DNA of 64,000 nucleotides from Curvularia clavata (GCA_023920165.1 CP089275.1:1054001-1118000), one strand, 5' to 3'. Shown: positions 22,381 through 54,609, counted from the first letter of the stretch. Notes: generated from the letters alone by a model not told the origin. Numbers and translations are program-made.

Positions 22381-22624
22381 GGTCGAAGGTGTAAAATGGC
22401 TGGGTCTGCTTATGATGCATGTGAACTCTTTCCATAGTCGTGTAGACGGCCATCTTATATGTTCAACGAAAGAAGCTGTAGAAGATACCTTGCATGCTGC
22501 GGCCTCCGTGTTCATCGAGAAACAGTGCCGTGGATTTGAGTGGGGCGCCTAACAGGTGCTCGGGGGCGGGACCGAGACCGAGCTTCGGTGATCTCATCAC
22601 TCCGAACACTTTACATCGCACACC
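22381..22624. promoter_or_regulatory. Short bidirectional promoter between the MFS and the Zn2Cys6 TF, with clustered CGG/CCG triplets
   Basis: 244 bp separate the divergent ATGs. cgggggcgggaccgagaccgagcttcgg...tccg at 22561-22605 resembles Zn2Cys6 half-sites. Confidence 0.45.
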
Positions 22625-28570: not shown

Positions 28571-31500
28571 ATGGAACCCTCTCCATCAAGCTCCTCTGAC
28601 GAGGATAGCCACCACCATGTGCGCCCCGAGCTACGCCTTCTCACTGCCGTCAACAATGGCAAACTCGACCAAGTAATTGCCATTATTGAAGCTACAAAAG
28701 CAAAGAACTCACCCACCGACCACCTCCTGCGCATTGGCCTTGTTCGTGCGGCCGAGCGCGGACAAGCATTTATTGCCGAATATCTGCTAAAAAATGGTGC
28801 GAAGCCGGACGGCGCGCCTTTCGGGCGTTCCTCGCCATTGCTAAAGGCCGTTGAGACGAATCAAGTGCAAATCGTACGACTGCTATTGAATCATGGCGGG
28901 AATGTGGATATCGCAGATAAGCAGGGTCGGACGGTGCTGATGATAGCTGCATGCAAGAATCACTGGCATGCGCTGAACGAGCTGCTGCGAAGGGGCGCCG
29001 ATGTTAACAAGAAGGACAACAAGGGGCGGAACGTGCTGCACAACCTTGCAGCTGACGACGACTGCAGTTGGGGGAGGGATATTATCCATCTGTTACTACA
29101 GCAGAATATTGCTATCGATGGGCCCGAAGGACAGGACGACTCCAGACGAAGCCCACTGCATTGGGCGGTATCGACGGGGAAGAAGGAGCTGTGCGAGATG
29201 TTGATCATGAGACCGACAGCACCGCGAGCAAATATCAATGCGAGGGAAAAGAAGGACAAAACGCCTCTGCATCTCGCTGTCGCGCATGGAAGAGAGGACA
29301 TTGTAGGACTGCTAATCCACTATGGCGCTGATATTACCGCAAAAAGTGACGGAGGCTGGACGGTGTTGCACAGTGCTTGTCAGCAGGGCAGTGTCAAGAT
29401 TTTGGGGATGCTCCTGGAAGCAGGTGCAGAGATCAATGCACAGCTGTTGAACGGGCAAACGCCATTGCATGAAGCAGTACATTCAGGCCATCTCGAAATC
29501 GTCAAGGAGTTACTTCTGCACGAGGAGTGCAAACGCGCTGTGAAAGACGCATTTGGGATAACACCTTTCGTTCGGGCGGCGCAGAAGAAGCACAAGGAAA
29601 TTATCCACCTTCTGGCTCCGTTCAATCACGTGGAGACATTGTCGAAAGATGCGTTGGCTGCGTGTACTGGTTTCAATGCAACAATAATCGACTTTGGCAA
29701 TTTCCCCGGTGGAAAATCAGTTCAGAAAAAAGCTGTATACGGTATACCTGCACAGTCACTTGATATTGACGAAAGCTGACCCTCAAGCTAGAGATTTTGT
29801 ACGGACGCGATGTGATAGACCCACGGAAACCGGCGTATAATATTTTACCTAGGCACAGAAAGGCTGCCGACTTCAGGTGGATACATATCCCAACCAACAA
29901 CATAAATTGGATCGAAGACCTCCTTGCTAAAGTGTTTATTGAAGAAGGTGCAGATGATGTGGAAGGTTATATGGATCTACAGCAGTCATTGAGCTATCAG
30001 CATGGAGGGAAATTAGCACATTCTCGCTTTATGACACCTGCATGCCGAATTACTACACGCGCACAGAAGTCCGCAGATGATGAGCTTTCCGAAGACGCTG
30101 CCACAGAACAAGGACCGCCTCAAATCTTCATCAATTCTCGGACTAATGTCCAACTTAAGACTGTTCCAGCAACAAAACCCGCGCGAAGAAACCCTCCAAA
30201 GCAAGTTTCTAAGAGTAACATCTTCTTCTGTATGCCATACCTACACTACGAAACGGATAGCCGTCGTTGTGAAATGCAGGGCGCTATAAAGCGGGCCGAA
30301 TTATCAAAGAACGGAATCCCCTCAACCAGAGCCATCACATACGATGAAATGCTGATCCGGGCATACCTTGTCACGCAAAATTCTTCGCTTCACGTCCGTC
30401 GCACTTTAGATCAATCCTTCTACCACAATATTGATACCCAAACTCGCGACTGGGATCAGGTCATATACCGCTACCAATTGAAGCATAACAAAGCTGACAG
30501 TGTAGATCCCAAGATTTTCATGGTCGATCAGCTATGGATGTGGACACTAGGCAAAGATTTGATTGTGACTAGCTTTCCCCAGCGCTGGCAACAAGCAAAG
30601 AACGATCCGATGAATGTCCTCGATAACATAATCGAGACAATCACTTCGAGGCGCCGCGAACCAGTGCGCACCGTTTATGATCTAGCCATGACTATCACCG
30701 AGTGCTGTTTAGGCGTGTACGACCGCCTGTGCATAGGCGACAACGCGTTCCAATTCCTCGATATGTTCGAATCGACTTTAGGCGACGCGACCGATCGCGA
30801 GGACTTGCTATTTAAGGAATTCAACGTTGCCTCGCTACAGGCATCGGCGTGGCTGCAACAACGGCACCAGCGTCCAGACCGCATGCTCGGGCACGGCACG
30901 AAAGAAGCTGCAAGCGCCAACATCTTTGAGCGCTTTCAACTCGTAGACCCTAGCTCAGATCCATTGTTCGTCGATAAGCTCCTCGATATCAGTCAGGAAA
31001 CCATGCTTCTAGCCGAAACAAAGGATATTCGTGACGAGCTGAACATGATCGCAATAATCTTTAGAACTCAGCAACAAGTTTTGCCCGAACTCGAGATGGT
31101 TATTGCTGACATATACGGAGAGCAGCACAGAAGCCAACAAAGCGTCAAGAAACCGATCAGGGAACAGCTAAGGAATACCGAAATGCGCATGAAGGAAATA
31201 GAAAGGATGGACAAGCAGGCGGAGCGCGTCTACATGTCCGTTATCGACTTACTCGATCTTAAGCAGAAGCAGGACGCGAACGCGTTCGAGGGCCGCATGG
31301 CTCGCAACCAAGCAGAAAGCACTGCGCGCCAGAGCCAAATCATCATGGTATTCACCATCGTCACTATCATTTTCCTACCTCTCAACTTTATTGCCGCCGT
31401 CTTTGCGATCAATATCCGCGAATTTCCTCGTGACCCAAACCAAGACGGTGCGCTACCTCTCGCCTACGTATCTAAGTATACGTTCGGCATCGGTTTCGCG

Positions 31501-31734
31501 GTTTCGGTGCCTATGATCGCCATTGCGCTTTCACTAGATGGAATGACCAAGTCCTTTAGTGAAATGAAAAGAGTCTGGAGGGAGATATGGCCTAGAAAGA
31601 GGACTAAGAATGGAGTGAGGGATCAGGAGGACGGGCGGGGGCCAACGGATCTGGACTGGACTCTGCTAGCTGAGAAGCGGACACTATCAATCTCACATGC
31701 TTACGGACACCACGATCGCGCTAGCAGGGAATGA
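28571..31734 (+). CDS. Ankyrin-repeat protein fused to a CorA-like C-terminal two-TM region (2 exons)
   Basis: Multiple ankyrin repeats (SPLLKAV, TPLHLAV, TVLHSAC, TPLHEAV). Intron 29742-29791 joins AVY-E-ILYGRD in frame. Motifs MPYLHYE, RRTLDQSFY, VDQLWMW and the TM segment FTIVTIIFLPLNFIAAVFAIN. Confidence 0.85.
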
Positions 31735-32142
31735 GTAGATAGAACAGCAGAACAGCATCATCGCAAGACAGAACCGGGTCATAGGGTACATTCGAAGTGC
31801 TCGCGCGTCGTTTCAAGCAGGGTGGCAGCGTCTCTAGTTTACTACCGAAGCACACCTCCAACTTTCAGATCCGCCACTGCACGTGCACGGTATAACCCTC
31901 AGATATCATGACCCTCCGCAAGATCCCAACGCCTCTCACGCAGCCCTATGGCTGGAGCAAGTCGGCTAACCTCTCTGCTAATAGTAGCAACCGCCACAGT
32001 CAAGACGCCGGCATTATCGTTTAGATATAACTCATAATCATACTTACACACCTCATGCAGTCCCACTTTCGCACTAGCTTGATATCCCATATGAAAAGCA
32101 GCATCACTATCCCATCTCTATATTCTGCATCTGCTACTAGTT

Positions 32143-32460
32143 CTATAGCTTAATCGACGACGTTATGTCGGGATGATGGTCTCCCAGGATCCGTTTGCGC
32201 AGCCGAAGCCACCTATCCATCAGTGAGATGGCCTTCTCGCTGCGGCATTGGGACTTGAGCGTGAACGCGAGATTGCCCATAGCCGTCAGCGTGTACAGAT
32301 GGTCATATCTAAGCACTCTCTCCCTCATGTCTATGACTTGCACCTCCGGATCTTCAGCCTCCTTCCAACGCTCTTGACTCCAAAACGTTGATGCCAAGTT
32401 AACCATGCTAGTAAGCATGTGTAGGTGCTCTATCCTGAGCACCTTCTCCCTTCTTCCCAG
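32143..32460 (-). pseudogene. Fragment of kinesin-light-chain-type TPR repeats (NLR-like C-terminus)
   Basis: Repeats HMLTSMVNLASTFWSQERWKEAE, HLYTLTAMGNLAFTLKSQ, ILGDHHPDI. No proper start and no upstream NB-ARC/NACHT domain. Confidence 0.7.
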
Positions 32461-32602
32461 CGCTCGCTACTATGTAACTGTGCTGTATGTCAACATGTCC
32501 GTTAATTTTTGCAAGATAGGGACTCCTTCCAACCCATGATGAAACCCCTGTCTAATGGCTGTATGTTATAAGACACTTGTCAAGCGCTCCTTATAAGCTG
32601 TC

Positions 32603-35629: not shown

Positions 35630-37041
35630 ATGTTCGGCACAATATCATTCACGAAAAATGGTCAATACAAGGTCTCGAACGATCACCTTTTCTCGCAGGA
35701 GGAGAGTGATCGTGCAACGCGACGGTTCGCTTGTCGCACCTGTCGGCTGTTCAAGGTGAGTCCACAAGGGGAACAACTTGCGAAAGTTGAATCCTCCCAA
35801 TCAGTTTTGGCTCCGAATTCTAATAAATTTCAGGTCAAATGCAGTAGGAACCCCACTGCATGTGCTCGTTGCTGCAGTCTCAGTCTTGATTGTGTTTATG
35901 ACCAATCCACGGAATCACGGTCTCAGCACGCTTCTAATGAACGACCGTCAAGTAACAGCAGTTCATTGACAACACAATCAAAATCAGCTTCTGCTAGCCC
36001 TACTCCAAGACCATCGAGTGCCCAGGGCTCTGGGCGTTCCAGTACTACAGAAACGCTCATTTCGAATTTTTTAGATTGCGAAGAACCTATGGAGTCTGAT
36101 GAAACCTTTGCCGAGTTTACACTAGAGAGTCCAGTCTTTCGAAGTGTGCAGTCAACACTCTCGATTGAGCAGCAACCTACAAACGACGCCTTGGAGGTGG
36201 GATTTTCTCCGTCTGGGAAGGACGTCTTTAGCATGGACCTAGGCTTTGATGAGCCGAACCTTGCAAATCACGGAATATCGCAAGGGTCTCTCACTCTTCA
36301 GGATTCTGACAAAATAGTATCATGTAAGTGGACTCTTCCTTAATTCGATACTGAGGCACTGTGGTAATTGAGAATGAAGTTCAAACACTACACGATACCC
36401 ATTGGCCGCAATCGACTTCTCAAAACGACGACCTTGGAGGCACAATAAACATGCCGAGCCCGATGTCGCCTCCTTTATCGCAGCCTCCCGCTACCGAATG
36501 CAACTGCTTGGGTCAGCTCTCAACAGCACTTTTCGCTCTCAACGGAATGCTCCGGCGCTCTGCTTATGACGAGAGCGTACCTACAGCCTCACGATTTCAA
36601 GAAGCTTTGCAAAGCGTCTTCAAAGTTACTGCACGGACAAAGGGGCTGCTGGATAAGGTTATGTGCTGCTCGTGTCGTTGCTTCACGAAAAGTGAAAATC
36701 GGGTGCTGCTTGTCATGATTTTGGAGCAACTCGTAGACTTATGTTCTACTTTGGTAGCCCAGATAGAACTCAGATTCAAGGAGCCAAGTGAAGGCATTTC
36801 TGTGACAGTACACATAGGCGGATATGTAGTGGATAGCGAGCAGGAGCAGCAGATGGTTTTCTTTTTTCTCATCAGTGAGCGGTTCAGGACGCTCACTGCA
36901 TCAGCTGTTTCCTGCCGAGATAGGTTTGGCGCGGTAGCCGACACCGCTCATAGCCAAGCCCGCTTAAGCTCAGCAATTCACAGCCTTGGCTTGTTAAGGC
37001 TTAAAATAGGTAGCAGAACAAATATGAAATGTAAGGCATAA
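35630..37041 (+). CDS. Cluster-specific Zn(II)2Cys6 transcription factor (AflR-like C-terminus)
   Basis: Removing intron 35756-35833 gives CRTCRLFKVKCSRNPTACARCCSLSLDC. The C-terminal region has ECNCLG and VMCCSCRC. A second intron starts ~36324; its acceptor is uncertain. Confidence 0.82.
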
Positions 37042-37330
37042 ACTATCAAGTAATGCACAGCGCTGGCAGGGGTGGTGTGCCGAGCCTTGAAACATACAGG
37101 AAATGGAAAATTCGAATGGAGTGTCCTTCCGAATCGGGGTACAGCCCGAGAGCGACTGGTTTCGAGCCCCACTCCCATGTCCGTCGACTTATGTAATGAC
37201 AGAAAGTGCCAATAACATGTGGCTCAAGTCCGTTGTGAGTTATTGGAGAATGTGTTTAGATCATCGCTCCTGTTTCTGAGAGTCTTTGCATTCCTCACAC
37301 CATTCAAATCTCGATTTTACCGCAACCGGA

Positions 37331-39361
37331 ATGGATCTGTTCACTGATGGAATTCATGCACTCTACCTTGTTTGGCAATGGCCAGTAGTTCCATTGCTAA
37401 CAACTGTGGTATGGCATTATCTAGATACATTGGATTGAAAAAGCACTCTATGTATTAACATTCGACGATAGTCATTGTTCGCATTGATCTCGAAAGCTTT
37501 CTACAATGTCTTCTTTCACCCACTCGCGGATTTTCCTGGGCCGCTTCTGGGCCGCATGTCACTGGTAGGACCACTCTCCATTACATTCAAGGGCCATATT
37601 TTTTGTACTCACTTTGCTTACTTAAACATAGTTATGGCGTTTCAAATCTAGTGCAGGCGGGAAAATACACCTTGAAATCGAGAAGATGCATAGAAAGTAT
37701 GGTAAGAAGACATGCCACCAGTACCCTCGAATTACACGCACTAATTTAGCGAGGCCCTATTGTTCGTATCTCACCAAATGAGCTTTCTTTTGCGTCTGTG
37801 GAGTCCTGGCGCGCCATCTACGGACATGCTTCTCCAGGCAAGGAGGTCATGCGCAAGAGCCCATTCTACGACATCTTCAGCTCTGGCTTCAAGCATTCCT
37901 GTGTTGGCAGCGAGCGAGATACGAAGAAGCACGGAAGTATGCGACGTATGCTATCTGCAGCGTTCTCGCAGCGGGCTTTGCTTGAACAGGAGACAATGGT
38001 GTCTGGTACGATCGATAGATTTGTCGAAATCATAGGCAAGAAGAGCATAACTGAACCCTTGAATATGACCAAATGGTATGAGATGGTCAGCTTCGATATT
38101 CTTGGAGAGATGGCCTTTGGAGAGTCTTTTCATAGCATAGAGACAGGTTTGCTTCCCAACCCTTACTCACGGTTTTCTGTTGTTCACGTAACTAACTATC
38201 GAGCTCTTTCTAGGTCGATCTCATTTCTGGTCTGACTTGATACTAGAGCACCTGTATTTCATTACTCTGGTGGACAATCTGAGCCGCCTTCCCTTCGCAG
38301 TAGCAATTTCTCGGGTGCTGTTTCCTTCCATGCTCCTTGCCAAGAATCACAATTCCGAGTTCAGCAGGAAGCAAGTCGAAAAGTACGTTATCCAAGTGCT
38401 ATATCTGTCTCTTGTACAAATGCTTAAACACATTCATTTTAGGCGCCTCAGTTCTCGAAGCTCGCGGAAAGACTTTCTCACTCACCTTGTCCAGAAAGTC
38501 CGAGACGGCGAGGTAGAGCAAGAGGAGATGACAGCACATGTCTCAACGCTAGCGTAAGTTTTCCTGTCACCTTGAAGATCACGCTCGAAAACGCTATTAT
38601 AAATGATATCTACCAATACAGTGAATGTACTACTAACTGTACTATGCAGCATCGCCGGTGGTGAAACCGTCTCAACTTTTCTTGCTGGAACAACCTTCTT
38701 TCTGCTTAATAAGCCCTCAACAATGAAGAAGCTCACGACTGAGATTCGAGACGCATTTCCAACCTACGACACAATCAATGCGCAGAGAGCGCAGCAATTA
38801 CCTTACCTGCAGGCCGTAATTCAGGAAGGACTGCGAATGTATCCACCCGGTTCGCAAGGCTTTCCACGAATCTCTCCAGGATTTGAATTGCATGGAAAAT
38901 ACGTACCCCAAGGAGTAGGTAACCCCGTCTCTACTGTGCATGAATGGTTAAAAAATTTCACGTCTGACGCGAGCGCTAGGTCGAAGTGTACACTAGTGCA
39001 TGGACTGTGACGCACGACCCACAGTACTGGGAGAACCCAATGGAGTTTGCCCCCGAAAGATGGCTAGATAATGACAGCCAAGACATCCGGGAGGCGAGTC
39101 AGCCGTTCTCACTAGGGCCTAGAGGATGTCTTGGTCGAAAGTAAGCACCCCAAAATCAGTAGTTTCTCTCTCGCGAGTAAAGAACTAACCAATAGCAGTT
39201 TTGCCTACATGGAAATGTTCTTGTTACTGGCAAAGATGTTATGGAGATACGATCTCGAGCTGGTGAACAAAGATGTAGGCTGGCTAGATGAAGGAAAGGT
39301 CTACGTAATGTGGTGGAAGCCTAAGCTTATGATCCGATTTCATCCACGTGTTGACGTATGA
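37331..39361 (+). CDS. Cytochrome P450 monooxygenase (CYP65/Tri11-like), multi-exon
   Basis: FFHPLADFPGP, I-helix IAGGETVST, EGLRMYPP, PERW, heme motif PFSLGPRGCLGR. Confidence 0.92.
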
Positions 39362-39562: not shown

Positions 39563-41548
39563 CTACGTAGATTTATTTTTCTTCTTGATAGTGACCTGGA
39601 AACGATGTAATGGCGTTAACGTCACCTTTCCTGCACATTTCCAGTTTATATCCCGCCTCGCTTGCTCAACATCAGTCCCCTCTGCAAAGCAGATGTCGTA
39701 CTCATGAAGAAGTGCTGCAAAGAAAGCCATGTATTCTGCTTGGGCAAACTTGCGACCCAAACATACGCGCGCGCCATCGGAGAAAGTGAGTAGCGTTCCA
39801 CGCATCTGACGAGTTTTATCAGCAGCAACAGTCGCGGCTTTGCGCGACTTGACCGTCGTGCCTGCTTCGTTGTCGAAAGCATGGTTGCTCTTCGTTGAGA
39901 TGCCCTGCGTGCTGTTCCATCTTTCTGGCCGTAACTCTGTAGGATTTTCCCAGTACTTTTCATGGTAGTGTACACCAGGTGCTGATAGGTAGACACGACA
40001 GCCTGCAGGTAGCACATGTGACATGTTGTCAACGCGGATCTCTTGCTTGTCATGACACATCTTTGTGATCAAGGTCACACCAGGGTATAACCGGAAGGTT
40101 TCGTACTTTCATCAAGTCAGTAAGATCTATAGAAGTTGTCGGGTCGCAGTGACCAACCATGAATCCGTATAGATATTGCAGCTCGGCAAAATCATCTTCA
40201 TATGACAATCGTGTTCGTCCTTGTGCTGCGGCTCGTGACCACACCTTGTCAATACTGTCGCTCAATTTCTGTTGCAACATGGGCTCAAGTGCCAATACAA
40301 AAATGCCATATGCGATAGCATTAGCGGTAGTCTCGTATCCTTTGTCCATGTCGTCAGTACGGTAATTGCTTCAGATATAGCGGTACCCACCAGCTAGCAA
40401 GTATATGAACAAATTTCCCATGACCTCATCGTCCGTGAAAGCATGTTTTTTAACATTCTCCTTCCCAATCATAGCATGCTGCTTCTGATTCTCTAAGCCC
40501 GCCTCGTATGATGATCCGACGACCATGTTCAATAGGTTACGCCGCGATGCTTTTACTGCTTCGCCTGTACCTCCCTCTATCCTCTTTTTCTCGACACGAA
40601 TCATCCCCCGAAGATACTTATCGAGTTGCGAATGAGCGAGTTGGGCTTTTGCGTATGGGGAAATCTTCAGCAGCCAGGCGGGGAATACCAGTATTGCTAG
40701 CATAAAGGTTGTCGTATCACTGATGGCTCTTAAAAAGCTGATTTTGTAGCCAGTCGGAACGTCTCTTTCCTGATCTGTCACTGATTCAAGCTTTTTACCG
40801 AAAGCAGCAAGCGAAATGACAGCAAGAGTGAGTGCGTTGACGTTTTCGTGTATGTCTTTTGGAGGTTCTTTTGCCCATAAGCTCAGTAGGGTCTGTGTTT
40901 GATGCATTGTTTCGTCCCAAACAAGTTTGTTGATTCCGTTAGTCTCTGAGAATGCTGGTGCTGTGATGCGTACGTGGAAGCGGTATTCAGCTCCCTCCGC
41001 GGTTGCTACGTTGGGTCCATATGGCTCGAGTATTTCTGTTGGCTTTAATGTTGGCTTTTCTAAAACGTAGCTGTGCATACAGGGACATAATAGTAACAAG
41101 AAAAGTTCACATCGAACAGTTCCATAACGAAAATTCTGTGCTTACTATACTTATCTCGTGGCTTGGTGAAGTCAGAACGCCTGTTCATCACGTCCCACGC
41201 GAGAGCGGCATCTGCAGTGTAGCATATCATTCCATCGGGCGAGACGCAGATGAACGTATCACCGTACTCTTCATGAGCGAGCCTCTTATCCTCCCAGGAC
41301 CAGTCTTTGATCATGAATCGACACCATCTGGGCCATCCTTTACCCGCATCCAAGTGGGCTAGATAGAGCCTGCGAAGGAAAAGGGTTGCAAGCTGCGCGA
41401 ATACTTGCGTTTCAAGAAGAGGGGTTACCACTACTCGAAGACCAGTTGCTCGTGCTTTCGCGATGTTTCGCCACAAGCGGAGTCCTTGCACTAGCACCAG
41501 TGCAATCGTTATCATCAAAAGATGAGACATAATAGGTGGAACGTACAT
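39563..41548 (-). CDS. Cytochrome P450 monooxygenase, multi-exon
   Basis: N-terminal TM segment, I-helix YLLAG|YETTA, ETFRLYPG, LRPERW, heme motif TFSDGARVCLGRKFA. Confidence 0.9.
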
Positions 41549-41807: not shown

Positions 41808-42882
41808 ATGACGGACTTAAATCTTCGACTCGACAACGTTCCCTCACTAGATGGAAAGGTTGTGCTCTTGACAGGTCAGATCAGACAATCATCGACCTCA
41901 ACTAAAACTAGCTCATGTGTCAATAGGCGGCGCTTCTGGAATTGGTCTTGCAGCGGCCAGAATTTTTGCGAGCAAGGGCGCTGAGGTGCACGTCCTCGAT
42001 ATTGTGCCTATCGATGAGAGTTTCGATATTTACGAAATCCCAGGCCAGACGGTCAAACCGCCAGAGAGTTTGCCTGAAGTTCCCAGAGGAAGAATCAATT
42101 TTCGCCAATGCGACATCACTGACTGGAAATCCTTGAGGGATAACTTCCTGTCGTTTGATCACATCGATATTGCAGTGGCCAATGCGGGCGTCTCGCAAGA
42201 TCCTGATTACTTCACAGATGTTTTTGACGATGATGGGTTGCTCCTGGAGCCAAAGCACAAGGTTATGGATGTGAATTTTCGATCTGTGTTGAATTTCACC
42301 AAACTGGCTTTACGTCAGTTCGCAACCCAGCCCGCGGGAAGTAGCCTTGTCATTACTGCGAGCGCTACTGCTTATGCACCAGAGCAAAGTCTCCCTGTGT
42401 ATAGCGCCACAAAACTTGCTGTAAGTGGGCACAGTTGTGCTCAATCTATTCTTGTAAAGCATTAACTGAGTTTGCTGCAGGTTGTGGGTCTGATAAGAGG
42501 CTTACGTCCCATGGCGGAGCAATACGGAACAACTATCAACGGAGTAGCACCTGCAGCTACCATCTCAAAACTATTGCCCACGAATCTTGCGGCGCCAATC
42601 AAGGCTGCCGGAGCGCCCATCAGCAGTGCATACCATGTTGGTTTGGCGATAGCATATTCCGCTACAGCGCAGCAGCAACGTGCTGTGGAGTCCTACGGCA
42701 GAGATGATGCAACCAAGTCGAACTCACCTGGTCGGTGGAACGGAAGGATTATCTTAACTCTCGGAGACCGCTGGACCGAGCTGGAGGAGCCAATTGCGTC
42801 TTTGCGACCGAATTGGTTTGGTGAATACAACACCAAGATGACGGCGTTCCAGCAGAAGTTGACGGATCAGCGACCTTTGTAG
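41808..42882 (+). CDS. Short-chain dehydrogenase/reductase
   Basis: MTDLNLRLDNVPSLDGKVVLLT|GGASGIG (TGxxxGxG split by an intron), ANAG, catalytic YSATK. Second intron at 42421-42480. Confidence 0.9.
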
Positions 42883-43108: not shown

Positions 43109-45101
43109 ATGTCAGCCATGGAAACGAATACACAATCTGAATCCAAGGGTCCGGAGGAATCGGCTACCTCTCTAACGGAGGCTGCCGATGACTACCCATC
43201 AGGTTCAAGGTTTTTTGGCTTGTTGGTGGCCTTGATGTTAACCATATTTTTAGTAGCTATGGATATGGTGCGCCTTATACGTCTGATGACTATCGTTTCT
43301 GCTTCTAACCATAACAGACAATTGTTGCTACTGCTATTCCACGTATCACCCAGGAATTCAACAGCATACCCGACATTGGCTGGTACGGATCTGCGTTCTT
43401 CCTTACCATCTCTAGTTTTGCGCAACTCTGGGGCAAGGGTTATACATATTTTCCGCTGAAATGGGTTATAATCGCTGCCATTGTTGTATTCGAGATTGGA
43501 AGTTTGATCTGCGGTGAGATTTTTGATGTTTTTTCCTTTTTCTCTGAAATTCGTTGCTGACATTTCATCCTAAGCTGTTGCACAAGATAGTATAACGTTG
43601 ATAGTCGGCCGAGCGATTTGTGGTGCAGGCGGCGCCGGTATCACGAATGGCTGTTATACGATTATTGCCTTCATCGCAAGACCAGAAAGCCGTCCAGCAT
43701 ACACGGGTCTTCTCGGTGCGACATACGGTATGGCTAGTGTTATTGGACCATTGGTCGGTGGTTTCTTTACCACCGATGTTACATGGCGATGGTGGTGAGC
43801 AATCCAAATATTCACTTCAACCATCTACAGTGACCCGCTGACACAACATCTCCACAGCTTTTACATCAATCTTCCTATCGGAGGGTTTTCGCTTTTGGTT
43901 CTAACATTTTTCTTTAAAACACCTGCTGCTGCTAAACCGAAATCCGCCTCGCTGCGAGAGAAGGCACTGCATGCAGATTTACCTGGAGTGATACTCAGTG
44001 CCAGCTGCATTGTTTGCTTTCTGTTGTATCTGCAGTGGGGAGGTATCACTAAACCATGGAACTCACCGGACGTGATTGGTTGCATTGTTGGATCCATTGT
44101 CCTCTTCGCTGCATTTGCTTGCGGACAGTGGTACTTGGGTGAGAGGGCGATGATGGTTCCTCGTCTTCTCCTGACCCGTGAGACCATCGCCCTAGCGCTC
44201 TACAATTTTTTGTAAGCTTTCTTTGTCCTTTGAAGGCCATCTGAATCACTGCTAATTCTGTTAGCCTTGCTGGGTCTTACTTTGTCTTTGTTTACTACCT
44301 GCCAATCTATTTCCAATCGATTGGTGGGCTCTCAGCTGCAGCAAGCGCGGTGAGAAATTTACCCCTTATCATCAGTTCCTGTACGTCGCACCTTTCAATG
44401 AAGTCGTTGTTGCATTCATTATTGCTGACATGAAATAGCTATCTTTGGCATCGTGTCTGGTGTCTTAATGACCAAATTCGGTTACTTTCATTGGTTTCTA
44501 TGGATCGGCGCAGCCCTCAGTGCTCTCGGAGGAGGCCTTATCTATACGCTCGGCATTCAACTTGACACTGGCAAATATGTAGGCTTCCAACTGATAGCTG
44601 GAACTGGTGCAGGCCTGTCTCTGCAGGTTCCTGTCATTGTTGCCCAAGCTACCACGCGTCCCGAAGATATCGCTATGCGCACAGCCATCTTACTTTGTAA
44701 TGTGTCCTCAGGATCTTTCACTGCAAGCTTACTAACTGTCCTTAGTCTTCCAAACACTCGGCGGTGCCATTTTCATATCCGTAGCTCAGAACATGTTTGC
44801 CAATCAGTTGCTTCAATCTGTGACAAACAACAATGTCGGCTTTGACCCCCAAAAGATTCTGTCTGTGGGAGCAGATGACCTGAAAAGCCACTTTCTTGCT
44901 CATGAGCTCAGCGACGTCTTCAAAGCATATCTGTTGGGATTGAGAACAACTTGGATCTTGGGTATTGCGTGCGCGAGTGCTGCATTCATAGTCACTTTTG
45001 GATCACGGTACCGCAACATACTCGCTCCAAAAGCACATTTATCAGGCTCCAAAGATGGCTCATACATTGAGAAAGCCAGTGAGGATGAGGCGATAGTTTG
45101 A
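43109..45101 (+). CDS. MFS drug:H+ antiporter (DHA2, toxin-efflux type), multi-exon
   Basis: [58 protein letters not shown]. Confidence 0.92.
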
Positions 45102-45329: not shown

Positions 45330-46823
45330 TTAACACAAAAGTTTCATGTATTCCTGCCATTCTGTATCCTGCAGCAGCATCTCCATGTCTTCCTTGATCA
45401 TGGTAACAACGACTTCGACGTCACCGTTTTCCTTTTCTGGCATAACGAAAGTGATACCCTCGAATATTCCCTCGGGAAACCTGACGTAATCAGGAACGGT
45501 ACGATCTTCCCCAAATACACTGCCCCAGTGCGTCTTGTATAGCCGCAGTCCGGAAAGTGAGCTTATTACCACATCCTCCGCCAACCAAGTCGGGTAAACA
45601 AGCCCGAGGCATGATACGTCTGGAATACTTGCAGCCAGTCTCAGGACGTCCCATAAAATAGCGGGCTCCCTGTGCGAGCGGACTGCAGCTCGAATATCGT
45701 TTGCAGTGTCCCTCATGGATTGGTTAGTTACGAGGTGTCTTGCCTGAACCTCGTTGACGCTGTAAACGATGACATTTGCTATGCGTTCCTTGCTTTTCTT
45801 TGCGCCAGAATCGGAGTGCACATATGGTATTAATCCCCGGATGTTCATCGCGTACATCATAGTACTTGTCTTTGTAAGGTCTTCTGCCTTCCGTAGTCTA
45901 GCTCGCACGATGCAGCGCCATATTAGTGCTGAGGTGGCGTCGTTGTTAGAGATCCAATTCCCGTTACTCTGCGATATCTTCTCATCAATGGGATTGACGT
46001 CCTTTCCCGCCGGCCTTCTACATAATTCCTTGAGAAAAAGCTGTTGCTCGGCGCTCATACCAAAGATCTTGGTAACTGTCTCTTGTTGTGGAATATTTTT
46101 TGCCAACATTGCAGACGTCATTTCCTTGGGTCTGTAATCCAAACCAAGCATGTGCCATAGCTCTTTTCTACCCTTCAACTGATCGTAGACTTTTCTATCC
46201 TGATTGATGCCACCCTGAAGGCCTATCTCCTTCTGTGAAATTGGCCAGTGGTGAAGGTTCGCCGTAGTCTCTCCCCTAGCCTGCAGTGCCCACGCTTCCG
46301 CAATCTGACTGAGACCCGAGGCATCCATGACCGCATGGCTCGTGCATAAACACAGGAAGACACCATTCTTGATAAAGCTCACTTTTGCTTTCAAAAGGAA
46401 TTTCATTCCTTCTTCGCTAGTCTCCCTACTTGGGATGAGTAGTTTTGCGCTCAAGTATTTAGAAGGCATGTGCTCCGAGACCAATGTATCATAATCTTTA
46501 TTTTCATACAGGGGGTGTTGAGATATATCCTGTATTGAGAGTTGAAGGTCGGCGGGATCGTGAATGCTCGAACCGTTGCCATTCGCATCCAAAGGACTGG
46601 AGAGAAACTTAGTCCCCAAGCGATGACCCGATGTTACTGCGTTGCTGTTGACGGTACAACGCATCCAGGGGTTCGAGGAAAGTAGAGATCTAAAGGAAGA
46701 AGAAAGAATTTCGGCTGTTTCTGAATGTGTGCGGCACGGCAAAGTGAGAACAAACGGGAGGTCGATGTCCGGCATGATATCGTCTAGGGCACCCAGAGGA
46801 TAGGAGTTTATGTTGTTGACCAT
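45330..46823 (-). CDS. CoA-dependent O-acyltransferase (Tri101/BAHD-like Transferase family)
   Basis: Intronless ~497 aa ORF with catalytic HxxxD (SHAVMDASG), SNNDATSALIWRCI, and a DFGWG-position variant YKTHWG. Confidence 0.85.
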   Translation of the reverse strand: MVNNINSYPLGALDDIMPDIDLPFVLTLPCRTHSETAEILSSSFRSLLSSNPWMRCTVNSNAVTSGHRLGTKFLSSPLDANGNGSSIHDPADLQLSIQDISQHPLYENKDYDTLVSEHMPSKYLSAKLLIPSRETSEEGMKFLLKAKVSFIKNGVFLCLCTSHAVMDASGLSQIAEAWALQARGETTANLHHWPISQKEIGLQGGINQDRKVYDQLKGRKELWHMLGLDYRPKEMTSAMLAKNIPQQETVTKIFGMSAEQQLFLKELCRRPAGKDVNPIDEKISQSNGNWISNNDATSALIWRCIVRARLRKAEDLTKTSTMMYAMNIRGLIPYVHSDSGAKKSKERIANVIVYSVNEVQARHLVTNQSMRDTANDIRAAVRSHREPAILWDVLRLAASIPDVSCLGLVYPTWLAEDVVISSLSGLRLYKTHWGSVFGEDRTVPDYVRFPEGIFEGITFVMPEKENGDVEVVVTMIKEDMEMLLQDTEWQEYMKLLC

Positions 46824-47081
46824 GTTTTTTCTCGCCTTCTTTTTTCTATTTGAGTCGTTCGTAGCAACTAAGGAGGACAATAAATGAATACGATGAATTT
46901 CTAGCTGTATTTGACTTGGGATTGTGCTTTCTTTTTAAGAGTGAAGACTTTTTGAGTTAAGTATGGCACCTGGCACGAAATTGAACAAATGTTCGGGGGA
47001 AAACCAAAAGGGTATTTCCGAATGGGTTAAATATATCCGAGCACCGAGAACTCCAAACTGACTAATCGAGACCTTACAAGC

Positions 47082-48175
47082 TCAATCTACCATCAAGTAC
47101 CTCGGAGTTGTCTTGCTCCAGGTCTCGTTCCCACTCATCTGATATTTTAGCCCTTCCGCATACAACACTTGCGGGTCAAGAAGATCTTTCGAGTCATAGA
47201 GCGCAGTGCATAACATCTCGTGCTTCATCTCCCATTCGCGAACCAAAGACCAAAGGACCTTCTTTGACGATTTAATGTCCAGCCCGGTATTGTCTGCCAT
47301 AACCTTGACCGCAGAGCAGAGTGCAGAGCCTTCTTGTGCGCACTGCTCTGCCTGCTTCAACTCCTTTTCCCAGCTATAAATGTCGTTGACTATGGCGATA
47401 TGCTTGGCATGGTTTTCTTCAAGAGCACGCATCGCAGCGAGATCTTTAGGATCCAGCTCCAGATTCATAGAAAATCGCATGAGTGCAGATAGAAGACTAG
47501 GGTGCTATTAGTTAGGTGATTTTTTACAAAATAATGAGTTTGGAGCAAACGTACGCGCTTCCTACGTCCCTCTCGCGGTACACAAGGTAGCTACCCAGTT
47601 GGTCAATGCTCACTCGCGACTTATCGGTCTGAGCACGCATGAAAACAAATACGGGCTCTAGAACACTGTTTGCGAGTTCCATATCGATCTTACGCATTTC
47701 GTCCCAGATGGCATGGAACATCCATTCAACGGGAATCGACCCTTTGTCCAGTGAGCAATTATGGTTTCTGCATCGGAACCCTTACTCACAATCTGGCGCC
47801 ACCTTGCCTTCGGCGATGGGCATCAAATGCTCATTGTACGCTTTGCCTTCATCAAAAGACATCTCCTCCAAGAGGTCTCAAGTTACTGTCAGCGACGTGT
47901 GTAGAACTGTCTCAATTTCACCTACCATCTATCAGGAAAAGGATGGTGAGAAGCTTGCATGCAGATGCAATGCGTTCATCATGGGCCCGTGGGAAATACA
48001 AGCATGTAACACGAGAGAAGCCAGCGGCAACGAATTTCTTTCTTGCCTTTTCGTTAGGAAAAGGCCAATGCTGAAGGAACCAGCCATCAACTTGGGCAGT
48101 AGTTTCTTCAACTTTGGGGTGGATCGAAGATGTCCATGTGGAAGGAAGCGCAGGGTCCGAGATGAGGGCAGGCAT
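47082..48175 (-). CDS. ari1: Aristolochene synthase-like sesquiterpene cyclase (4 exons)
   Basis: Segments closely match the Aspergillus terreus/Penicillium aristolochene synthases as I recall them (FLQHWPFPNEKARKKFVAAGFSRVTCLYFP, LEPVFVFMRAQTD, YRERDVG, YQMSGNE). Motifs DDLLE, NSE NDIYSWEKE and the terminal RY are present. The actual product hydrocarbon is not proven. Confidence 0.9.
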
Positions 48176-48485
48176 GGCGTGAGGATATTTGCAAATTCAA
48201 GACTGGTTGGCACGACACATTTCTCGTGGAGTGGTGATTTAGGGACATTTTGAGGATTTCATAGTGATGCGTATGCTCCAATAGGAAACATCAAAAGGTA
48301 CAACGCTATGGCCCAAAGGAGAAAGCGTTAGATTGCTCGAGCTCCGGGCTCTTGCCAAATGGGAACACACTGCATCTAGGCAAGCGAACTACCTCGGACC
48401 GGAAAATCTTTTCTACGCGCATACGCCCCGTCACATCTCCCCCTGCGTTTGTTTTTCCTGTCTGCCACCCACCTGACGAGGCAAA

Positions 48486-50062
48486 ATGGTTTACCCCACG
48501 AATGTAGGCATCAAGGCCATCGAAATTTATATTCCCGGCCAGGTAAATATGCCCACGAAACTCATAATTGTGTCAGCATGCTTACTAACGTAATCCACTA
48601 GACCCTAGACCAGACTCAGTTTGAGGCGTACCAGGGCGTATCTGCAGGAAAGTACACAATCGGTCTCGGCTTAAAGTCGATGAACTTTTGCACAGACCGC
48701 GAAGGTATAGACGTGCCAGTAGGGCTCCAATGCAGCCCGGCCATGGGCTGACAGAAATAATGTTAGATGTATGCTCTCTTGCGCTCACCGCCGTTTCTTC
48801 CCTTCTCAAAAAGTACTCGATCAACCCAGACTCTATAGGCAGGCTCGAGGTAGGCACCGAGTCTCCTTTTGACAAGGCCAAGTCGGTCAAGACCGTCTTG
48901 ACTCAGCTATTTGGTGACAACCATAGCCTAGAAGGGGCGGATACAGTCAATGCGTGCTATGGTGGCACCAATGCCTTGTTTAACGCTATCAATTGGGTCG
49001 AATCTCGCTCCTGGGATGGTAGGGACGCGATTGTTGTAGCCTCTGACATAGCTGTGTACAAGCAGTCTGCGGCTAGGCCCACTGGCGGTGCTGGATGTGT
49101 CGCCTTGTTAGTTGGTCCAAACGCTCCGATAATCTCCGTCCCTGGTCTTCGCGGCACGTATATGACGCACGCATATGACTTTTACAAGCCTGAAATGCGT
49201 TCTGAGTATCCGTTCGTGGATGGCAAACTTTCCATATCCTGCTACCTGTCTGCACTTGATGGGTGCTACGCAGATCTACAAAAGTCAGCAGCACGAGCTT
49301 TACGTGACTCTGAGAGATATCCTGAAGCGAGTGCTATTCTAGCTCAGGATCGGCAAACCTTTGCTGACATCTTCGACTTTATGGCATTTCACACCCCCAA
49401 CTGCAAGCTTGTCAGCAAATCGTACGGCCGACTCTTATACAACGACTTCCGTCAAGATAGCACGTCGCACGAGGGCTTCGCTAGCGTGCCCAAACACCTG
49501 CACAACCTGTCCTACGATGAATCGCTCCAGTCAAAGGAGGTTGAAACTACCTTTGTGCAGCTTAGCAAAGCTCAATTCAAAGCCCGCATTGAGCCATGCA
49601 TTCAAGCACCAAGCCGGTGTGGTAACATGTATACCGCTAGCTTGTACTGCTCACTGCTGAGCCTCCTTTCTTCTGTTAGATCCGATGCCCTCCAGGGCAA
49701 AACCATCGGTCTTTTCAGCTATGGCAGTGGTATTGCAAGCAGTCTGTTCACTATGCAAGTTGTGGGAGATGTCACCAAGATCATAGAGCAAGTGAACCTC
49801 TTTGCTCGTTTGGACCAGCGTCACCTTGCCACGCCCGATGAATATGAAAAGGTATGATACTTGTTGACTCTGTGCTTCACATGGAACTAATACCATATGC
49901 TAGGCTTGTAAATTGCGAGAAGAGGCCTACGGAAAGAACAGCTTCACCCCACAGGCCGGTCTGGACGACATCGGTGAAGGTGTCTATTACCTTGAAAATG
50001 TAGACGATCAATACCGACGCACATACAAGGTTAAGGAACCCATCACCAACGGCGCTCACTAA
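48486..50062 (+). CDS. erg13: Hydroxymethylglutaryl-CoA synthase (ERG13 homolog, probably a cluster-specific paralog)
   Basis: [24 protein letters not shown] (catalytic Glu), NACYGGT (catalytic Cys), [18 protein letters not shown] (His), GNMYTAS, FSYGSG. Three introns. Confidence 0.95.
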
Positions 50063-50567: not shown

Positions 50568-52565
50568 CTACATGCTCCTTCGTATAAGTCTCACTCGAAA
50601 TTCAGGCTTCTTCCACAACAAGTGCATCTCACTTTGCCCCTGCCAATCCACCACACTATCAGCTGAAATGTCATAACAAAAGAGCAGTCGAGCAAGGGTG
50701 ATGTTCATTTCCAGCCAGGCCAGACTAAAAAAGATGTCAGTGTCAAAAAGCTTGTACGAAAAGAGAAAATCATCAGATTGGTATTACTAACCTGCGTCCA
50801 AGGCAGCTGCGGCTTCCTAGTGAAAAAGGCTTCGCTGCCTCTAATGAATCACTGCCGGCTTTTTCTTCAAGCCAGCGCGTGGGTTGAAATTGTTCAGGTT
50901 GCGAAAAGTTTTGAGGGCTCATACTGGCAGCATATGGATGGGTTGAAACGCAGAACTAGATTCGAGTTGACTTAGCACGAGAAAAACGGATGAAGATTTG
51001 TAAAAATTAAGAGAAGTCCACGCACCCCTCCTGGGACAAAATGTCCGTCAACCAAAGCACCCCCTTCTGGAACCACTCTAGGTAACCCTAGTGGTAATGG
51101 CGGAAATATTCTGAGGGCTTCCAAGCACACGGCATGCAGATAGCGAAGTCTTGCAGTACTAGGTCCGTCGATGTCTTTGTATGTTGTGAATTTATCGGTG
51201 ATTTCATTCCGTAGGCGCTCCAAAATACCTGGGTTACGGCAGAGGTAGTATAACACTACTGTTAAAGTAGTTGCTGTAGTTTCACTTCCAGCAATGCTAC
51301 CAACTGTTAGCTAACAGGGGTTGCAATAAAACCGAATCAGGGTGTCGTACACAAAATCCGAAGCATGTGCCGCAAATTGAACGTCGCTGATGCCCTCACG
51401 TGCGGACAGCAGATATGCCATGAAATCCTTTCTATCGGTTTTCTCCTCGATCCTCCTTATACACTGTAAGACACTCTGAAGATAGCGATGAGGGGAGAAA
51501 TGGTGACGAACTGCTTGGTGATTCTCATCGTGTATGTTTGATGTCTTTGGCTCGCGGCCATAAGTGAATTGAGCCAGTCTGGTCTGAAGAACATGTAGAC
51601 CTTGCCGACCCAGGGGAATCGCGAGAATGTATCTGAGAAATTGGCCTGGGACATGCTGCCTAGAACATCGTCAATCCAGTGATGCGTTTTCCCTTGAACC
51701 AATGGTGTTAGAATGTTTTCGAATAATTCTTAAGAGGATGTTATTTACCACTTTCGATTCCCTCAAAGTCCTGTCCGAACGCTAGTAATCCAATGATATC
51801 TGTAGAACAGTGAGTAAATACCCAACACGAAGTCCTTTCTTTGAAGCGTACCGAACGTCATCAAGTTAAACCATTTGGTCAAGTCTACCGATCCATCCTG
51901 CTCGCTAACCTGTCCGACCTTATCAACAAATTTGGTAATGACGTTGCTGATCATTCCTTCTTGCTCCCTCAAGCTCTGATCCGAAAATGCGCGCGACAAA
52001 AATTTCCTCATCTGCGCATGCTTCGCGGGATCGCGCTCGCTTACGATGCTGTGTGCCTGGTCCGCAAAGTTTCCGCCATCGTAAAACGCCGACTTGATGA
52101 ACTCATTGCCCTTGCGCGGTGCATAGATATCAGTCCACGATTGTGGTGAGGAGAAGGATACTTCGTTTGGTGAGACACGAATTACGGGTCCTTTGTATGC
52201 TAAGTTAATGGTCTACGAAAAGTGTTGTGGGTAATTGAAAAACAAACCATATCTTTCATGCAGTTTTAGAATATCCCATGGTTGCCTACCACTTAGAAAA
52301 CTTTTGCTGTATGGATACTAGCAATTTTCTCAGTCATTTTCTGTGCAACTGTCATACGAAAACAAGAGTGCGTCTTACGTTGGAGAGCGCTGCCAGCTTG
52401 GGACCAGGAATGTGCGAAAGCGGGTGGAAGTAAAGTCGACGAACAGCTCCTAATACAACGAACGATAACGGCTTCCACATAAGTCAGTAGTTGTGCGTCT
52501 GGGTTTCAATCTCAACTAACAATAAGGGCGGCCCAGACAACGAGGCTTATCGTTGAGGTGTCCAT
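50568..52565 (-). CDS. Cytochrome P450 monooxygenase (CYP65/Tri11-like), multi-exon
   Basis: YFHPLSHIPGP, IAGSETTAT, EALRIFPP, heme motif PFSLGSRSCLGR, C-terminus LLWKKPEFRVRL. Confidence 0.92.
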
Positions 52566-52874
52566 GGCTAGTAGGTGTGAAGGCATCGCCATTGTGTCGG
52601 CTTCGCGATGAAAGATCTGCGCAAAGCGCATGCACCAACGTATGCACACAGACTAACATACTTTTGTTCAAATTGATTGCCGTTGTGCCTAAGTAATGGA
52701 GGCTCCTTTCGAAAAGCCCGTCCTGGTGCCAAAAACGTACAAGTTCCCCTTTCGATGTCTCCCCGGCCGGGCGCCGCCGAGTTGGTGCAAGCCTCCGGCG
52801 AACATGCATATCTGCAAAAGGGCAGCTTCAACCCAAGATTTCGAAACCGGACCAGCCAGAGTTATCGTTTGAAT

Positions 52875-54609
52875 ATGCTGAACGGTACATCCAATTCATT
52901 CGAAGACGTCAGTCTTGGCCGTCTGGCTTTTGGCCGAGCGACGCTGCTGTTGGTGGGGTCCGCTTTGTATCCACATCGCATGACCGCTGCCCTTACTCTC
53001 TTTACGCTATTGGTTTTCTATCGACTTTTATTTGTCTACACTGAAGACAAGCGCGAACCGCGCCTAATCAAGCCTCGATTTCCGCTCATTGGACATGCGA
53101 TCAACATCTACCGGCATGGATCCCGTCATTTTGTGGCAATAGCGTAAGGAACACACTTACTTGCTATTAGCAAGAAATCTGAATTAATTATATAATAGGA
53201 GAAAATGCGGCCTTCCGATATTTTTGCTTCCGATGCCTGGCGGTCGCATCGCCATTGTCACAACCCCGGCTCTGTTGTCCCACGTCGACAAGAACCCAAA
53301 AGCCATTGCATTTGCTCCGATCGCTGCTTTAGTCATTGACAAGCTGTCTGGTTTGTCGAAATCGGGGTCTAAGGTTGTCCTCGACAAACTCATGGGAGAG
53401 GACAAGATGGAAGGGTATATGAATGCCGTGATGAAAGATATTCATGCGACTCTGACACCGGGACCACACCTGGAAACGATCACAACTCAGGTCGCTTATG
53501 ATATCAATGGTTCCATCCGAAAACTTCATGGAAAGACAAGCCGTGTGAACCTGTTGCATTGGTTCAGGCATGAATTTGGCCTATCATCAACAAATGGAAT
53601 TTACGGACCAGAGAATCCATTCAAGGATCCCAAGGTCGAAGCTGGATTTTGGTGAGTGTTCCTAACTCTAATAGTGTCATCATCTCCTAACCTTGATTGT
53701 TGCAGGGCTTTTGACGACAACATTTCCGATTTGCTTATCACACCCAAAGCCAACGTCACATGCCCTTCAGGCGATCGTGGCCGGGCCGACGCTTGGAAGG
53801 GTTTCGAATACTACTTTACAAAAAATGGCCACGAAAAGGGTTCTGAGCTCGTAAAGATCCGCTACAGACATGCTGCTGACCGCGGTCTTTCTAACCTCGA
53901 CATTGGCAAGCTGGAAGTAACGATGATCATTGGTATTCTGACCAACACCGTCCCCACGATATTCTGGGCTGTCTACTACATCTATCGCGATGCACAACTC
54001 CTTAAAGACCTCCGTGAAGAGATCAGCGAATTCGCTGTCAAGACTACCAACGGCCAAGGCGAATCCATATGGACAATCAAGAATGTTGACCTGAACAAAC
54101 GAGCCAAGTTACTAGCAGCGGCAATTGACGAAACCTTCCGTCATAGGACATGTGGTATTTCGAGTCGTTATGTAACCGAGGATATCACATTGGACGATCA
54201 ATATCTCTTGAAGAAAGGAACTATCATGGAACTCCCTAACAACGCTCTCCATTCCAACAGCGAGTACTGGGGAGAAACAGTGAACGAATTCAATCCTCGA
54301 CGCTTCCTGGCCAACCCACGTTCCGCCGAAGCGAAAGCTGCTCGCGGTGCCTTCCGGCCGTTCGGAGGTGGTGCGTCGCTCTGTGCTGGCCGCCACCAGG
54401 CCATGTCACAAATGCTCGGAGCACTTGCCCTCTTCATCATGAGCTCAGACTGCGATCCCGTAGGCGGAGAGTGGAAATTCCCTGGTGCGCACGGACACAC
54501 TATTGCAGCTGCTGTCGACTTGCCCTCGACTGATCTTTGGCTCGATGTGAAGCCTCGGAAAGGTTACGAATCTGACTACTGGCTACTTGACCCGCTGGCG
54601 AAAGATTAG
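52875..54609 (+). CDS. Cytochrome P450 (CYP7/CYP8-like, E-class group IV), 3 exons
   Basis: N-terminal TM segment, PRFPLIGH, I-helix GILTNTVPT, ETFR, FNPRRF, heme motif PFGGGASLCAGRHQA. Confidence 0.9.

What the first reader, a model, noticed from the sequence alone, without database searches (positions are those of the whole stretch)
47082..50062. Terpene cyclase and HMG-CoA synthase share a ~310 bp bidirectional promoter: acyl donor, flux booster or self-resistance gene?
Seen: the ATGs at 48175 (-) and 48486 (+) are head-to-head, and the HMGS keeps its catalytic Glu/Cys/His (EVGTES, NACYGGT, FHTP). Known: duplicated primary-metabolism genes inside clusters often supply precursor or encode a resistant drug target, and HMGS is the target of hymeglusin/1233A. 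Inference, three testable models: (a) HMG-CoA is made for the adjacent acyltransferase, giving an HMG ester; (b) mevalonate flux to FPP is boosted; (c) the product inhibits HMGS and this copy is resistant, which would point to a new antifungal mode of action.
Basis: partly seen in the sequence, partly recalled or inferred. Interest (0 to 1): 0.8.

Follow-up and report, generated by a model that had tools for sequence, protein, structure and literature searches.

The report
Sesquiterpene cluster with private HMG-CoA synthase
A fungal gene cluster for an unknown sesquiterpene carries its own normal-looking HMG-CoA synthase, most likely to supply a building block rather than to protect the fungus, while a stray sister copy elsewhere in the genome looks like the known drug-resistant form of this enzyme.

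Summary
An aristolochene-synthase-like cyclase (ATG 48175, minus strand) and an intact 467-aa HMG-CoA synthase (HMGS; ATG 48486, plus strand) lie 310 bp apart, and both are spliced in public contigs. They sit in a cluster with a Tri101-type acyltransferase, four P450s, SDR, MFS and a Zn2Cys6 factor; there is no PKS, HMGR or FPPS. The genome has a separate ERG13 and a third, stand-alone HMGS. The cluster recurs across four fungal classes: HMGS is next to the cyclase in 7 other genomes or contigs and linked to the acyltransferase in 10 of 19 relatives. Self-resistance is disfavoured. HMGSs beside hymeglusin-type PKSs carry His two residues before the catalytic Cys; all 13 cluster-linked copies keep canonical Asn, while the stand-alone copy gained His convergently. 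Best reading: a normal enzyme supplying HMG-CoA, probably as acyl donor (about 0.45) or for terpene flux (about 0.33); self-resistance about 0.1. Co-regulation is not shown: in the Colletotrichum higginsianum orthologue HMGS is expressed while the adjacent cyclase is silent. The product is unknown. New variant of a known kind.

The parts
35630..37041 (+). Zn2Cys6 transcription factor, candidate cluster regulator (start inferred)
   Evidence: Zn_clus E=1.5e-4; ORFs; ATG; no orthologue in the part of L019 held
37330..39361 (+). Cytochrome P450 'a' (start approximate)
   Evidence: Pfam p450; orthologue in L019 at 53-72%; stop
39563..41548 (-). Cytochrome P450 'b'
   Evidence: Pfam p450; orthologue in L019 at 51-65%
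41808..42882 (+). Short-chain dehydrogenase
   Evidence: adh_short; L019 orthologue 65-71%; spliced contigs
43109..45101 (+). MFS transporter (family read from the sequence and from similarity to the MFS at 20595-22548)
   Evidence: spliced contigs
45330..46823 (-). Tri101/BAHD-type CoA-dependent acyltransferase, 497 aa, one exon, H163-x-x-x-D167 intact
   Evidence: PF02458 and PF22664; alignment A1; model pLDDT 82.8, best Foldseek hits Tri101
47082..48175 (-). Aristolochene-synthase-like sesquiterpene cyclase, 312 aa, 4 exons, DDLLE and NDIYSWEKE motifs
   Evidence: E=3.9e-111 to PDB 2e4o; introns
48176..48485 (.). 310-bp divergent intergenic region
   Evidence: no motif shared with the other cluster promoters was found
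48486..50062 (+). HMG-CoA synthase of the non-ERG13 'B' clade, 467 aa, 4 exons, canonical active site
50568..52592 (-). Cytochrome P450 'c' (start inferred)
   Evidence: Pfam p450; L019 orthologue about 59-67%; spliced contigs
52875..54609 (+). Cytochrome P450 'd'; the positional counterpart in C. higginsianum is annotated 'Prostacyclin synthase' (start inferred)
   Evidence: Pfam p450; L019 orthologue 64-67%

Best explanation
The locus is a PKS-free sesquiterpenoid cluster. The cyclase turns FPP into aristolochene or a close isomer (inferred from homology). Four P450s and the SDR oxidise it (inferred). The Tri101-type acyltransferase esterifies a hydroxyl (fold and HXXXD shown; activity inferred) and the MFS exports the product (inferred). 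The HMGS is a catalytically ordinary enzyme of an old paralogous clade co-inherited with this cluster (shown by tree and synteny). Its most likely job is to make HMG-CoA as the acyl donor, giving an HMG half-ester (+144 Da) of an oxidised eremophilane-type terpene (inferred, not shown). The same supply could also feed mevalonate. That it is a normal supply enzyme, whichever the sink, is about 0.8.
For: The acyltransferase belongs to a small family: 21 hits at E<=1e-20 among 7981 candidates scored. Of its 19 relatives (self and outgroup P0203 excluded), 10 are linked to a B-clade HMGS: 6 by accession or locus tag, 1 by DNA and 3 by equal contig length only. Acyltransferase and HMGS distances track each other over 11 linked pairs (Mantel rho 0.87, 0 of 2000 permutations as high); this shows co-inheritance, not function. 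No ketosynthase lies within about 340 kb of the cluster or among the L019 ORFs, so the donor must be a small acyl-CoA, and HMGS is the only acyl-CoA-forming gene seen in the cluster. HMGS and acyltransferase are 2 and 4 accessions apart in Bombardia and Hypoxylon FL0543, where no cyclase of this clade was found (a leaky search). The active site is canonical: 0 of 110 near-invariant positions changed. Precedent: an 'O-mevalon transferase' in the yanuthone cluster (PMC5374653, passages; that the group is HMG and the enzyme an MBOAT is recalled).
Against: The whole cluster is conserved, so co-occurrence cannot single out the acyltransferase. HMGS is directly adjacent to the cyclase, never to the acyltransferase, in 8 of 8 loci where both were placed. 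No acyltransferase hit came from H. fraxineus or A. sclerotialis, which have the cyclase-HMGS pair (leaky). The nearest solved acyltransferases use acetyl-CoA (Tri101). In C. higginsianum HMGS is expressed while the cyclase (0 TPM) and the probable acyltransferase (at most 0.27 TPM) are nearly silent. No HMG-eremophilane turned up in searches, or in the main-text term search of PMC13736955 (its supplement could not be read).
Confidence: 0.45

Rival explanations
1. Flux booster: the HMGS pulls acetyl-CoA into the mevalonate pathway to supply FPP when the cyclase is switched on; the acyltransferase is then an ordinary acetyltransferase.
For: Cyclase-HMGS adjacency is the most constant feature (8 of 8 loci; head-to-head in both loci whose DNA was read). 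A fusion of sesquiterpene synthase and HMGS is known in the hirsutene cluster of Stereum hirsutum (review passages in PMC8705726 and PMC9501842; the primary paper was not held, and its flux interpretation is recalled). The enzyme looks catalytically normal.
Against: The genome has one HMGR, 4.2 Mb away on the same contig, and no polyprenyl synthase in the window; HMGR is the textbook control point (established knowledge). The main text on 371 eremophilane clusters names a core of cyclase, P450 and SDR and has no 'HMG' occurrence. In C. higginsianum HMGS and the cyclase are uncoupled.
Confidence: 0.33
2. Self-resistance: the product, perhaps an electrophilic epoxide or enone, inhibits ERG13 and the cluster copy is insensitive.
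For: A separate ERG13 exists. The cluster copy is in the same broad B clade (100/100) as HMGSs that sit beside hymeglusin-type PKSs, where a knockout increased sensitivity (as cited in PMC12291444). The B clade differs from ERG13 at several positions near the active-site motifs. Expression is uncoupled from the cyclase in one orthologue.
Against: The Fusarium enzymes beside hymeglusin-type PKSs carry H115, N188 and T189 (window numbering); 13 of 13 cluster-linked copies keep N115 and canonical residues. The resistance-like residues are in the stand-alone C4 copy instead. I know of no sesquiterpene inhibitor of HMGS (recall; searches showed none). Caveat: resistance to a different inhibitor need not use the same residues.
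Confidence: 0.1
3. Tailoring enzyme: the HMGS adds an acetate unit to a pathway-specific keto-thioester, like AKT4-type beta-branching.
For: Fungal precedent in the AK/ACT-toxin clusters (PMC8102738 and PMC9134587, passages).
Against: That chemistry comes with a PKS and an enoyl-CoA hydratase; neither was seen here. No conserved active-site position is altered.
Confidence: 0.05
4. Passenger: a second general-purpose HMGS that travels with the cluster without serving it.
For: B-clade HMGSs also occur outside this cluster, including the C4 copy among housekeeping genes. Regulation is independent in C. higginsianum.
Against: It is retained beside the cyclase across four classes despite rearrangement of the other genes.
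Confidence: 0.07

Closest known systems
Fungal eremophilane clusters (PR-toxin, sporogen AO1, integric acid types; groups A-D, BC, X of PMC13736955)
   Same: Aristolochene-synthase-like cyclase with P450s and an SDR; a PF02458 acyltransferase with HXXXD as in group C
   Different: No PKS (group C needs one) and no aKG-dependent dioxygenase seen (group X). It has an HMGS, which the paper's main text never mentions. The cyclase forms its own clade (0.949). Orthology to Emp9/Emp4 was not tested.
Hirsutene synthase-HMGS fusion of Stereum hirsutum
   Same: A sesquiterpene synthase physically coupled to HMGS in a P450-rich cluster (review passages)
   Different: Basidiomycete, a different cyclisation class, one polypeptide. 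Here there are two divergent genes with separate spliced contigs and a co-inherited acyltransferase.
Hymeglusin (1233A) cluster HMGS (g431 / NghhB)
   Same: Fusarium HMGSs beside hymeglusin-type PKSs fall in the same B clade; the nghhB primer starts M-A-Y, as B-clade enzymes do
   Different: That cluster is HR-PKS, HMGS and P450. Its Fusarium members carry H115/N188/T189; the terpene-cluster copy does not.
Yanuthone cluster O-mevalon transferase (YanI)
   Same: Precedent for transferring a mevalonate/HMG-type acyl group to a fungal terpenoid
   Different: Meroterpenoid. The enzyme is an MBOAT and the cluster has no HMGS of its own (both recalled).
Colletotrichum higginsianum Cluster_21 (PMC5576322)
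   Same: Predicted cluster with ChTS07 next to HMGS CH63R_06528, plus P450s, MFS and SDR: the orthologous cluster
   Different: Only predicted, with no product assigned in the passages seen. It has ChPKS14 beside it and split expression.

Membership tests
HMG-CoA synthase (PF01154/PF08540) | Both domains and the catalytic Glu/Cys/His | tested here: met
Housekeeping ERG13 orthologue | Groups with canonical ERG13 and sits among housekeeping genes | tested here: not met
   55.6% identity to the C1 copy; AU test rejects grouping with it, p=3e-55
Hymeglusin-type self-resistance HMGS | Clustered with HR-PKS and P450 | tested here: not met
   nearest ketosynthase about 340 kb away
Hymeglusin-type self-resistance HMGS | Residues of the subclade beside hymeglusin-type PKSs (His at Cys-2, N188/T189); signature derived here, not from print | tested here: not met
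Hymeglusin-type self-resistance HMGS | Insensitivity to the cluster product, or knockout hypersensitivity | not testable with these tools
   needs the compound and an enzyme assay
Aristolochene synthase | Full-length homology with DDxxE and NSE motifs | tested here: met
Aristolochene synthase | Makes (+)-aristolochene from FPP | not testable with these tools
   forms a separate clade, 44-60% to the other hits; product could be an isomer
Eremophilane cluster (Emp2/Emp9/Emp4 core) | Orthologues of P450 Emp9 and SDR Emp4 | not tested
   four P450s and one SDR are present, but no reference sequences were available; supplement unreadable
Group C eremophilane cluster | PKS Emp12 supplying the acyl chain | tested here: not met
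Tri101/BAHD acyltransferase | HXXXD motif and Tri101 fold | tested here: met
   H163/D167; Foldseek E=5e-30 to Tri101
HMG-transferase | Uses HMG-CoA as donor | not testable with these tools
   clade-specific basic residues K72, R231, K233 noted; their position relative to the active site was not determined
Sesquiterpene synthase-HMGS fusion | Single polypeptide | tested here: not met
   opposite strands, separate contigs
AKT4-type beta-branching HMGS | PKS and enoyl-CoA hydratase in the cluster | tested here: not met

The most novel reading that the evidence does not exclude
This is an undescribed, class-spanning family of sesquiterpene clusters built round an HMGS-acyltransferase pair that makes HMG-esterified decalin terpenes, using a Tri101-fold HMG-transferase, a type I found no report of in fungi. 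In addition, the B-clade HMGS has at least twice independently acquired the same active-site-adjacent residues (in hymeglusin producers, and in a copy that escaped from this cluster), which would name candidate residues for hymeglusin resistance and show a non-producer guarding itself against a competitor's inhibitor.
Probability: 0.3. Interest if true: 0.75.

Novelty: new variant of a known kind. Interest (0 to 1): 0.58.

Why it matters
The cluster is present in plant pathogens, endophytes and saprobes of four fungal classes, yet no product was found for it in the papers searched, so it is a ready genome-mining target with a clear mass prediction. It also cautions resistance-gene-guided mining: a duplicated HMGS in a cluster need not be a resistance gene, and a sequence signature may separate supply copies from resistant ones. 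The three natural HMGSs in one genome (ERG13, cluster copy, stand-alone His-type copy) make the basis of hymeglusin resistance directly testable with purified enzymes.

Tried and rejected
A true cyclase-acyltransferase fusion. Public models fuse the two genes here (P0121, 811 aa) and in P. lindquistii (P0123, 803 aa), but the junctions differ, and cyclase contigs in 3 runs read through the stop unspliced, to 46998 or 47047. It is treated as an annotation artefact; 16 joints were not shown, so a minor fused form is not excluded. My first cyclase model had a wrong third acceptor and was corrected. Promoter motif search found no k-mer shared by more than 4 of 7 cluster intergenic regions, and no clear similarity to the C4 or L019 promoters. 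Depth was not used to rank genes, and the uncovered middle of the acyltransferase is not taken as evidence. The Atlas search gave only generic Transferase clusters. Four look-ups of earlier findings were empty. The idea of a caryophyllene (punctaporonin) product was dropped: the cyclase is aristolochene-synthase-like and one search gave no support. dN/dS between the window and C4 copies could not be computed because synonymous sites are saturated (pS 0.75, pN 0.086). The metagenome scan used one peptide pattern and gave only 2 near-identical loci from 9 matches. No complex prediction was run, since no binding claim is made.

Full report
Observation. The spliced HMGS model (467 aa) equals database protein P0001, listed there as Curvularia clavata, with E81, C117, H262 and N340 intact. 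The cyclase is 312 aa and aligns over its length to aristolochene synthase (E=3.9e-111), with both metal-binding motifs. Contigs of public runs skip all six introns (three of the four runs are only guessed to be RNA, but they are spliced). The same table shows spliced SDR, MFS and two P450 genes. Short divergent spacing is the local norm (259 and 282 bp for two other pairs), so the distance itself means little.

Anatomy. From 35.6 to 54.6 kb lie a Zn2Cys6 gene, P450a, P450b, SDR, MFS, the acyltransferase, the cyclase, HMGS, P450c and P450d. The acyltransferase has HXXXD and a Tri101 fold. The nearest ketosynthase is about 340 kb away. The single HMGR and the polyprenyl synthases lie elsewhere. 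The public 811-aa cyclase-acyltransferase fusion is probably a gene-prediction artefact.

Three HMGSs. The genome holds three: the cluster copy; a canonical ERG13 on C1 among housekeeping genes (55.6% identity); and an intact stand-alone copy on C4 next to NPR2 (83.5%), with no ketosynthase within about 250 kb. I built a tree from 114 of the 120 listed hits (6 short rows dropped; the 120 are the best of 2228) plus the C1, C4 and L019 copies, and a 44-row subset with IQ-TREE. The cluster copy lies in a 'B' clade separate from ERG13 (100/100; AU p=3e-55 against grouping with ERG13). The C4 copy nests inside the cluster-linked subclade (98/90), so it probably escaped from such a cluster. Synonymous sites are saturated while pN is 0.086, so the split is old and both copies are constrained.

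Conservation. Metagenome contig L019 holds orthologues of all nine enzyme and transporter genes, again with HMGS head-to-head to the cyclase. Consecutive identifiers place HMGS next to the cyclase in P. lindquistii, A. sclerotialis, H. fraxineus, A. pseudotamarii and H. rhossiliensis, and in C. higginsianum; orientation is unknown for these. The cyclases form one clade of 12 (0.949). Of the 11 other members, 6 are tied to an HMGS, 1 to the acyltransferase and 4 are unresolved. Of 19 acyltransferase relatives (self and outgroup P0203 excluded), 10 are tied to an HMGS, three of them only by equal contig length; the other 9 are unresolved for HMGS. Acyltransferase and HMGS distances correlate (rho 0.87), which shows co-inheritance only.

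Testing self-resistance. Hymeglusin clusters are HR-PKS, HMGS and P450; the HMGS is dispensable for synthesis and its knockout raised sensitivity (PMC12291444, passages). Table S7 of that paper lists PKS accessions that lie 1-2 numbers from members of HMGS cluster P0055 in six cases, like the spacing of BBU37366 and BBU37368. That these PKSs are hymeglusin synthases is my inference from their place in the table and their matching KS range. P0055 belongs to a group of 21 enzymes with His two residues before the catalytic Cys, where 94 of 94 other sequences have Asn; many also have N188 and T189. All 13 cluster-linked copies keep Asn, and the window copy deviates at 0 of 110 near-invariant positions. 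The C4 copy and its orthologue P0003 carry H115, N188 and T189 on a different background, and monophyly of the His type is rejected (AU p=5.7e-6). So the resistance-like enzyme in this genome is the stand-alone one. Limits: the signature is my own correlation, BBU37366.1 itself was not aligned, and resistance to another inhibitor could look different.

Evidence on co-regulation. In C. higginsianum Cluster_21 (PMC5576322, supplementary rows) the cyclase is 0 TPM at all four stages while HMGS runs 0.04, 1.5, 3.1 and 31.8. Three other genes peak in planta before necrotrophy, and a PKS lies alongside. A shared promoter therefore does not force joint expression there. For the window, contigs show only that both genes are transcribed in the same runs.

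Mechanism. Shown: gene structures, intact motifs, paralogy, long co-inheritance and the absence of a PKS. Inferred: an eremophilane-type core, its oxidation and acylation, and the role of HMGS. I favour HMG-CoA as acyl donor (0.45), because a PKS-free cluster keeps an acyltransferase of its own small family together with the one gene that makes an acyl-CoA. Flux support (0.33) is close, given strict cyclase-HMGS adjacency and the hirsutene synthase-HMGS fusion (review passages; primary paper not held). The two are not exclusive. Self-resistance is 0.10, tailoring 0.05 and passenger 0.07.

Literature seen. PMC13736955: parts 1-4 of 6 of the text and a term search with no 'HMG' occurrence. Its supplement could not be read and may list this cluster among the unclassified ones. 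PMC12291444: passages and supplement parts 3-4. PMC5576322: passages, supplement file 1 and rows of file 25. PMC9134587, PMC8102738, PMC8705726, PMC9501842, PMC5374653 and PMC8954384: passages only. Searches showed no characterisation of this cluster or of an HMG-eremophilane; the library lacks most subscription journals, so this is weak evidence of absence.

Verdict. The feature is real and conserved: a new variant of the eremophilane-type cluster with a private HMGS and an unknown product. The antifungal self-resistance reading is unlikely for this copy. The convergent His-type copy on C4 is a separate, testable lead. Interest 0.58.

Noticed in passing
G000:C4:3889550-3891094 (L012:4550-6094, minus strand): Stand-alone third HMGS, 475 aa, lacking the last intron, nested in the cluster clade but sharing H115, N188 and T189 with Fusarium HMGSs beside hymeglusin-type PKSs. 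No PKS nearby. A candidate guard against a competitor's inhibitor.
   Followed up: partly
window 45330-48175: Public gene models fuse the cyclase and acyltransferase here and in P. lindquistii, and fuse the cyclase and a P450 in C. shisoi (P0349); probably artefacts of short intergenic gaps.
   Followed up: yes
window 35214 and 37135: Near-palindromic CGG...CCG element upstream of the Zn2Cys6 gene and of P450a, found only twice in the window and not in the cyclase|HMGS region; no chance control was run.
   Followed up: no
window 20595-26840: Divergent MFS (-) and Zn2Cys6 (+) pair followed by a metallo-beta-lactamase-fold gene; possibly a small detoxification module outside the cluster.
   Followed up: no
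window 28541-32466: Ankyrin-repeat plus CorA-like gene and a TPR fragment on the left flank of the cluster.
   Followed up: no
L011:4249-5850: Tc1/mariner-like transposase ORF about 2 kb downstream of the housekeeping ERG13.
   Followed up: no
G000:C1:2709370-2710815: Terpene cyclase-like and polyprenyl synthase matches side by side, suggesting a chimeric di- or sesterterpene synthase.
   Followed up: no
C. higginsianum CH63R_06530 (PMC5576322 supplement): Annotated as a P450, but its length (1455 nt = 484 aa) and position match the cluster acyltransferase (P0197); likely mis-annotated. Sequence not checked.
   Followed up: partly
window 45372-45403: A 32-base stretch of the acyltransferase is matched by otherwise unrelated contigs in three runs; unexplained, possibly chance.
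   Followed up: no
L006:5594-6475 and L008:4927-6321: A bHLH gene about 3 kb from the C4 HMGS and an MBOAT acyltransferase about 14 kb away; no sign that they form a cluster with it.
   Followed up: no
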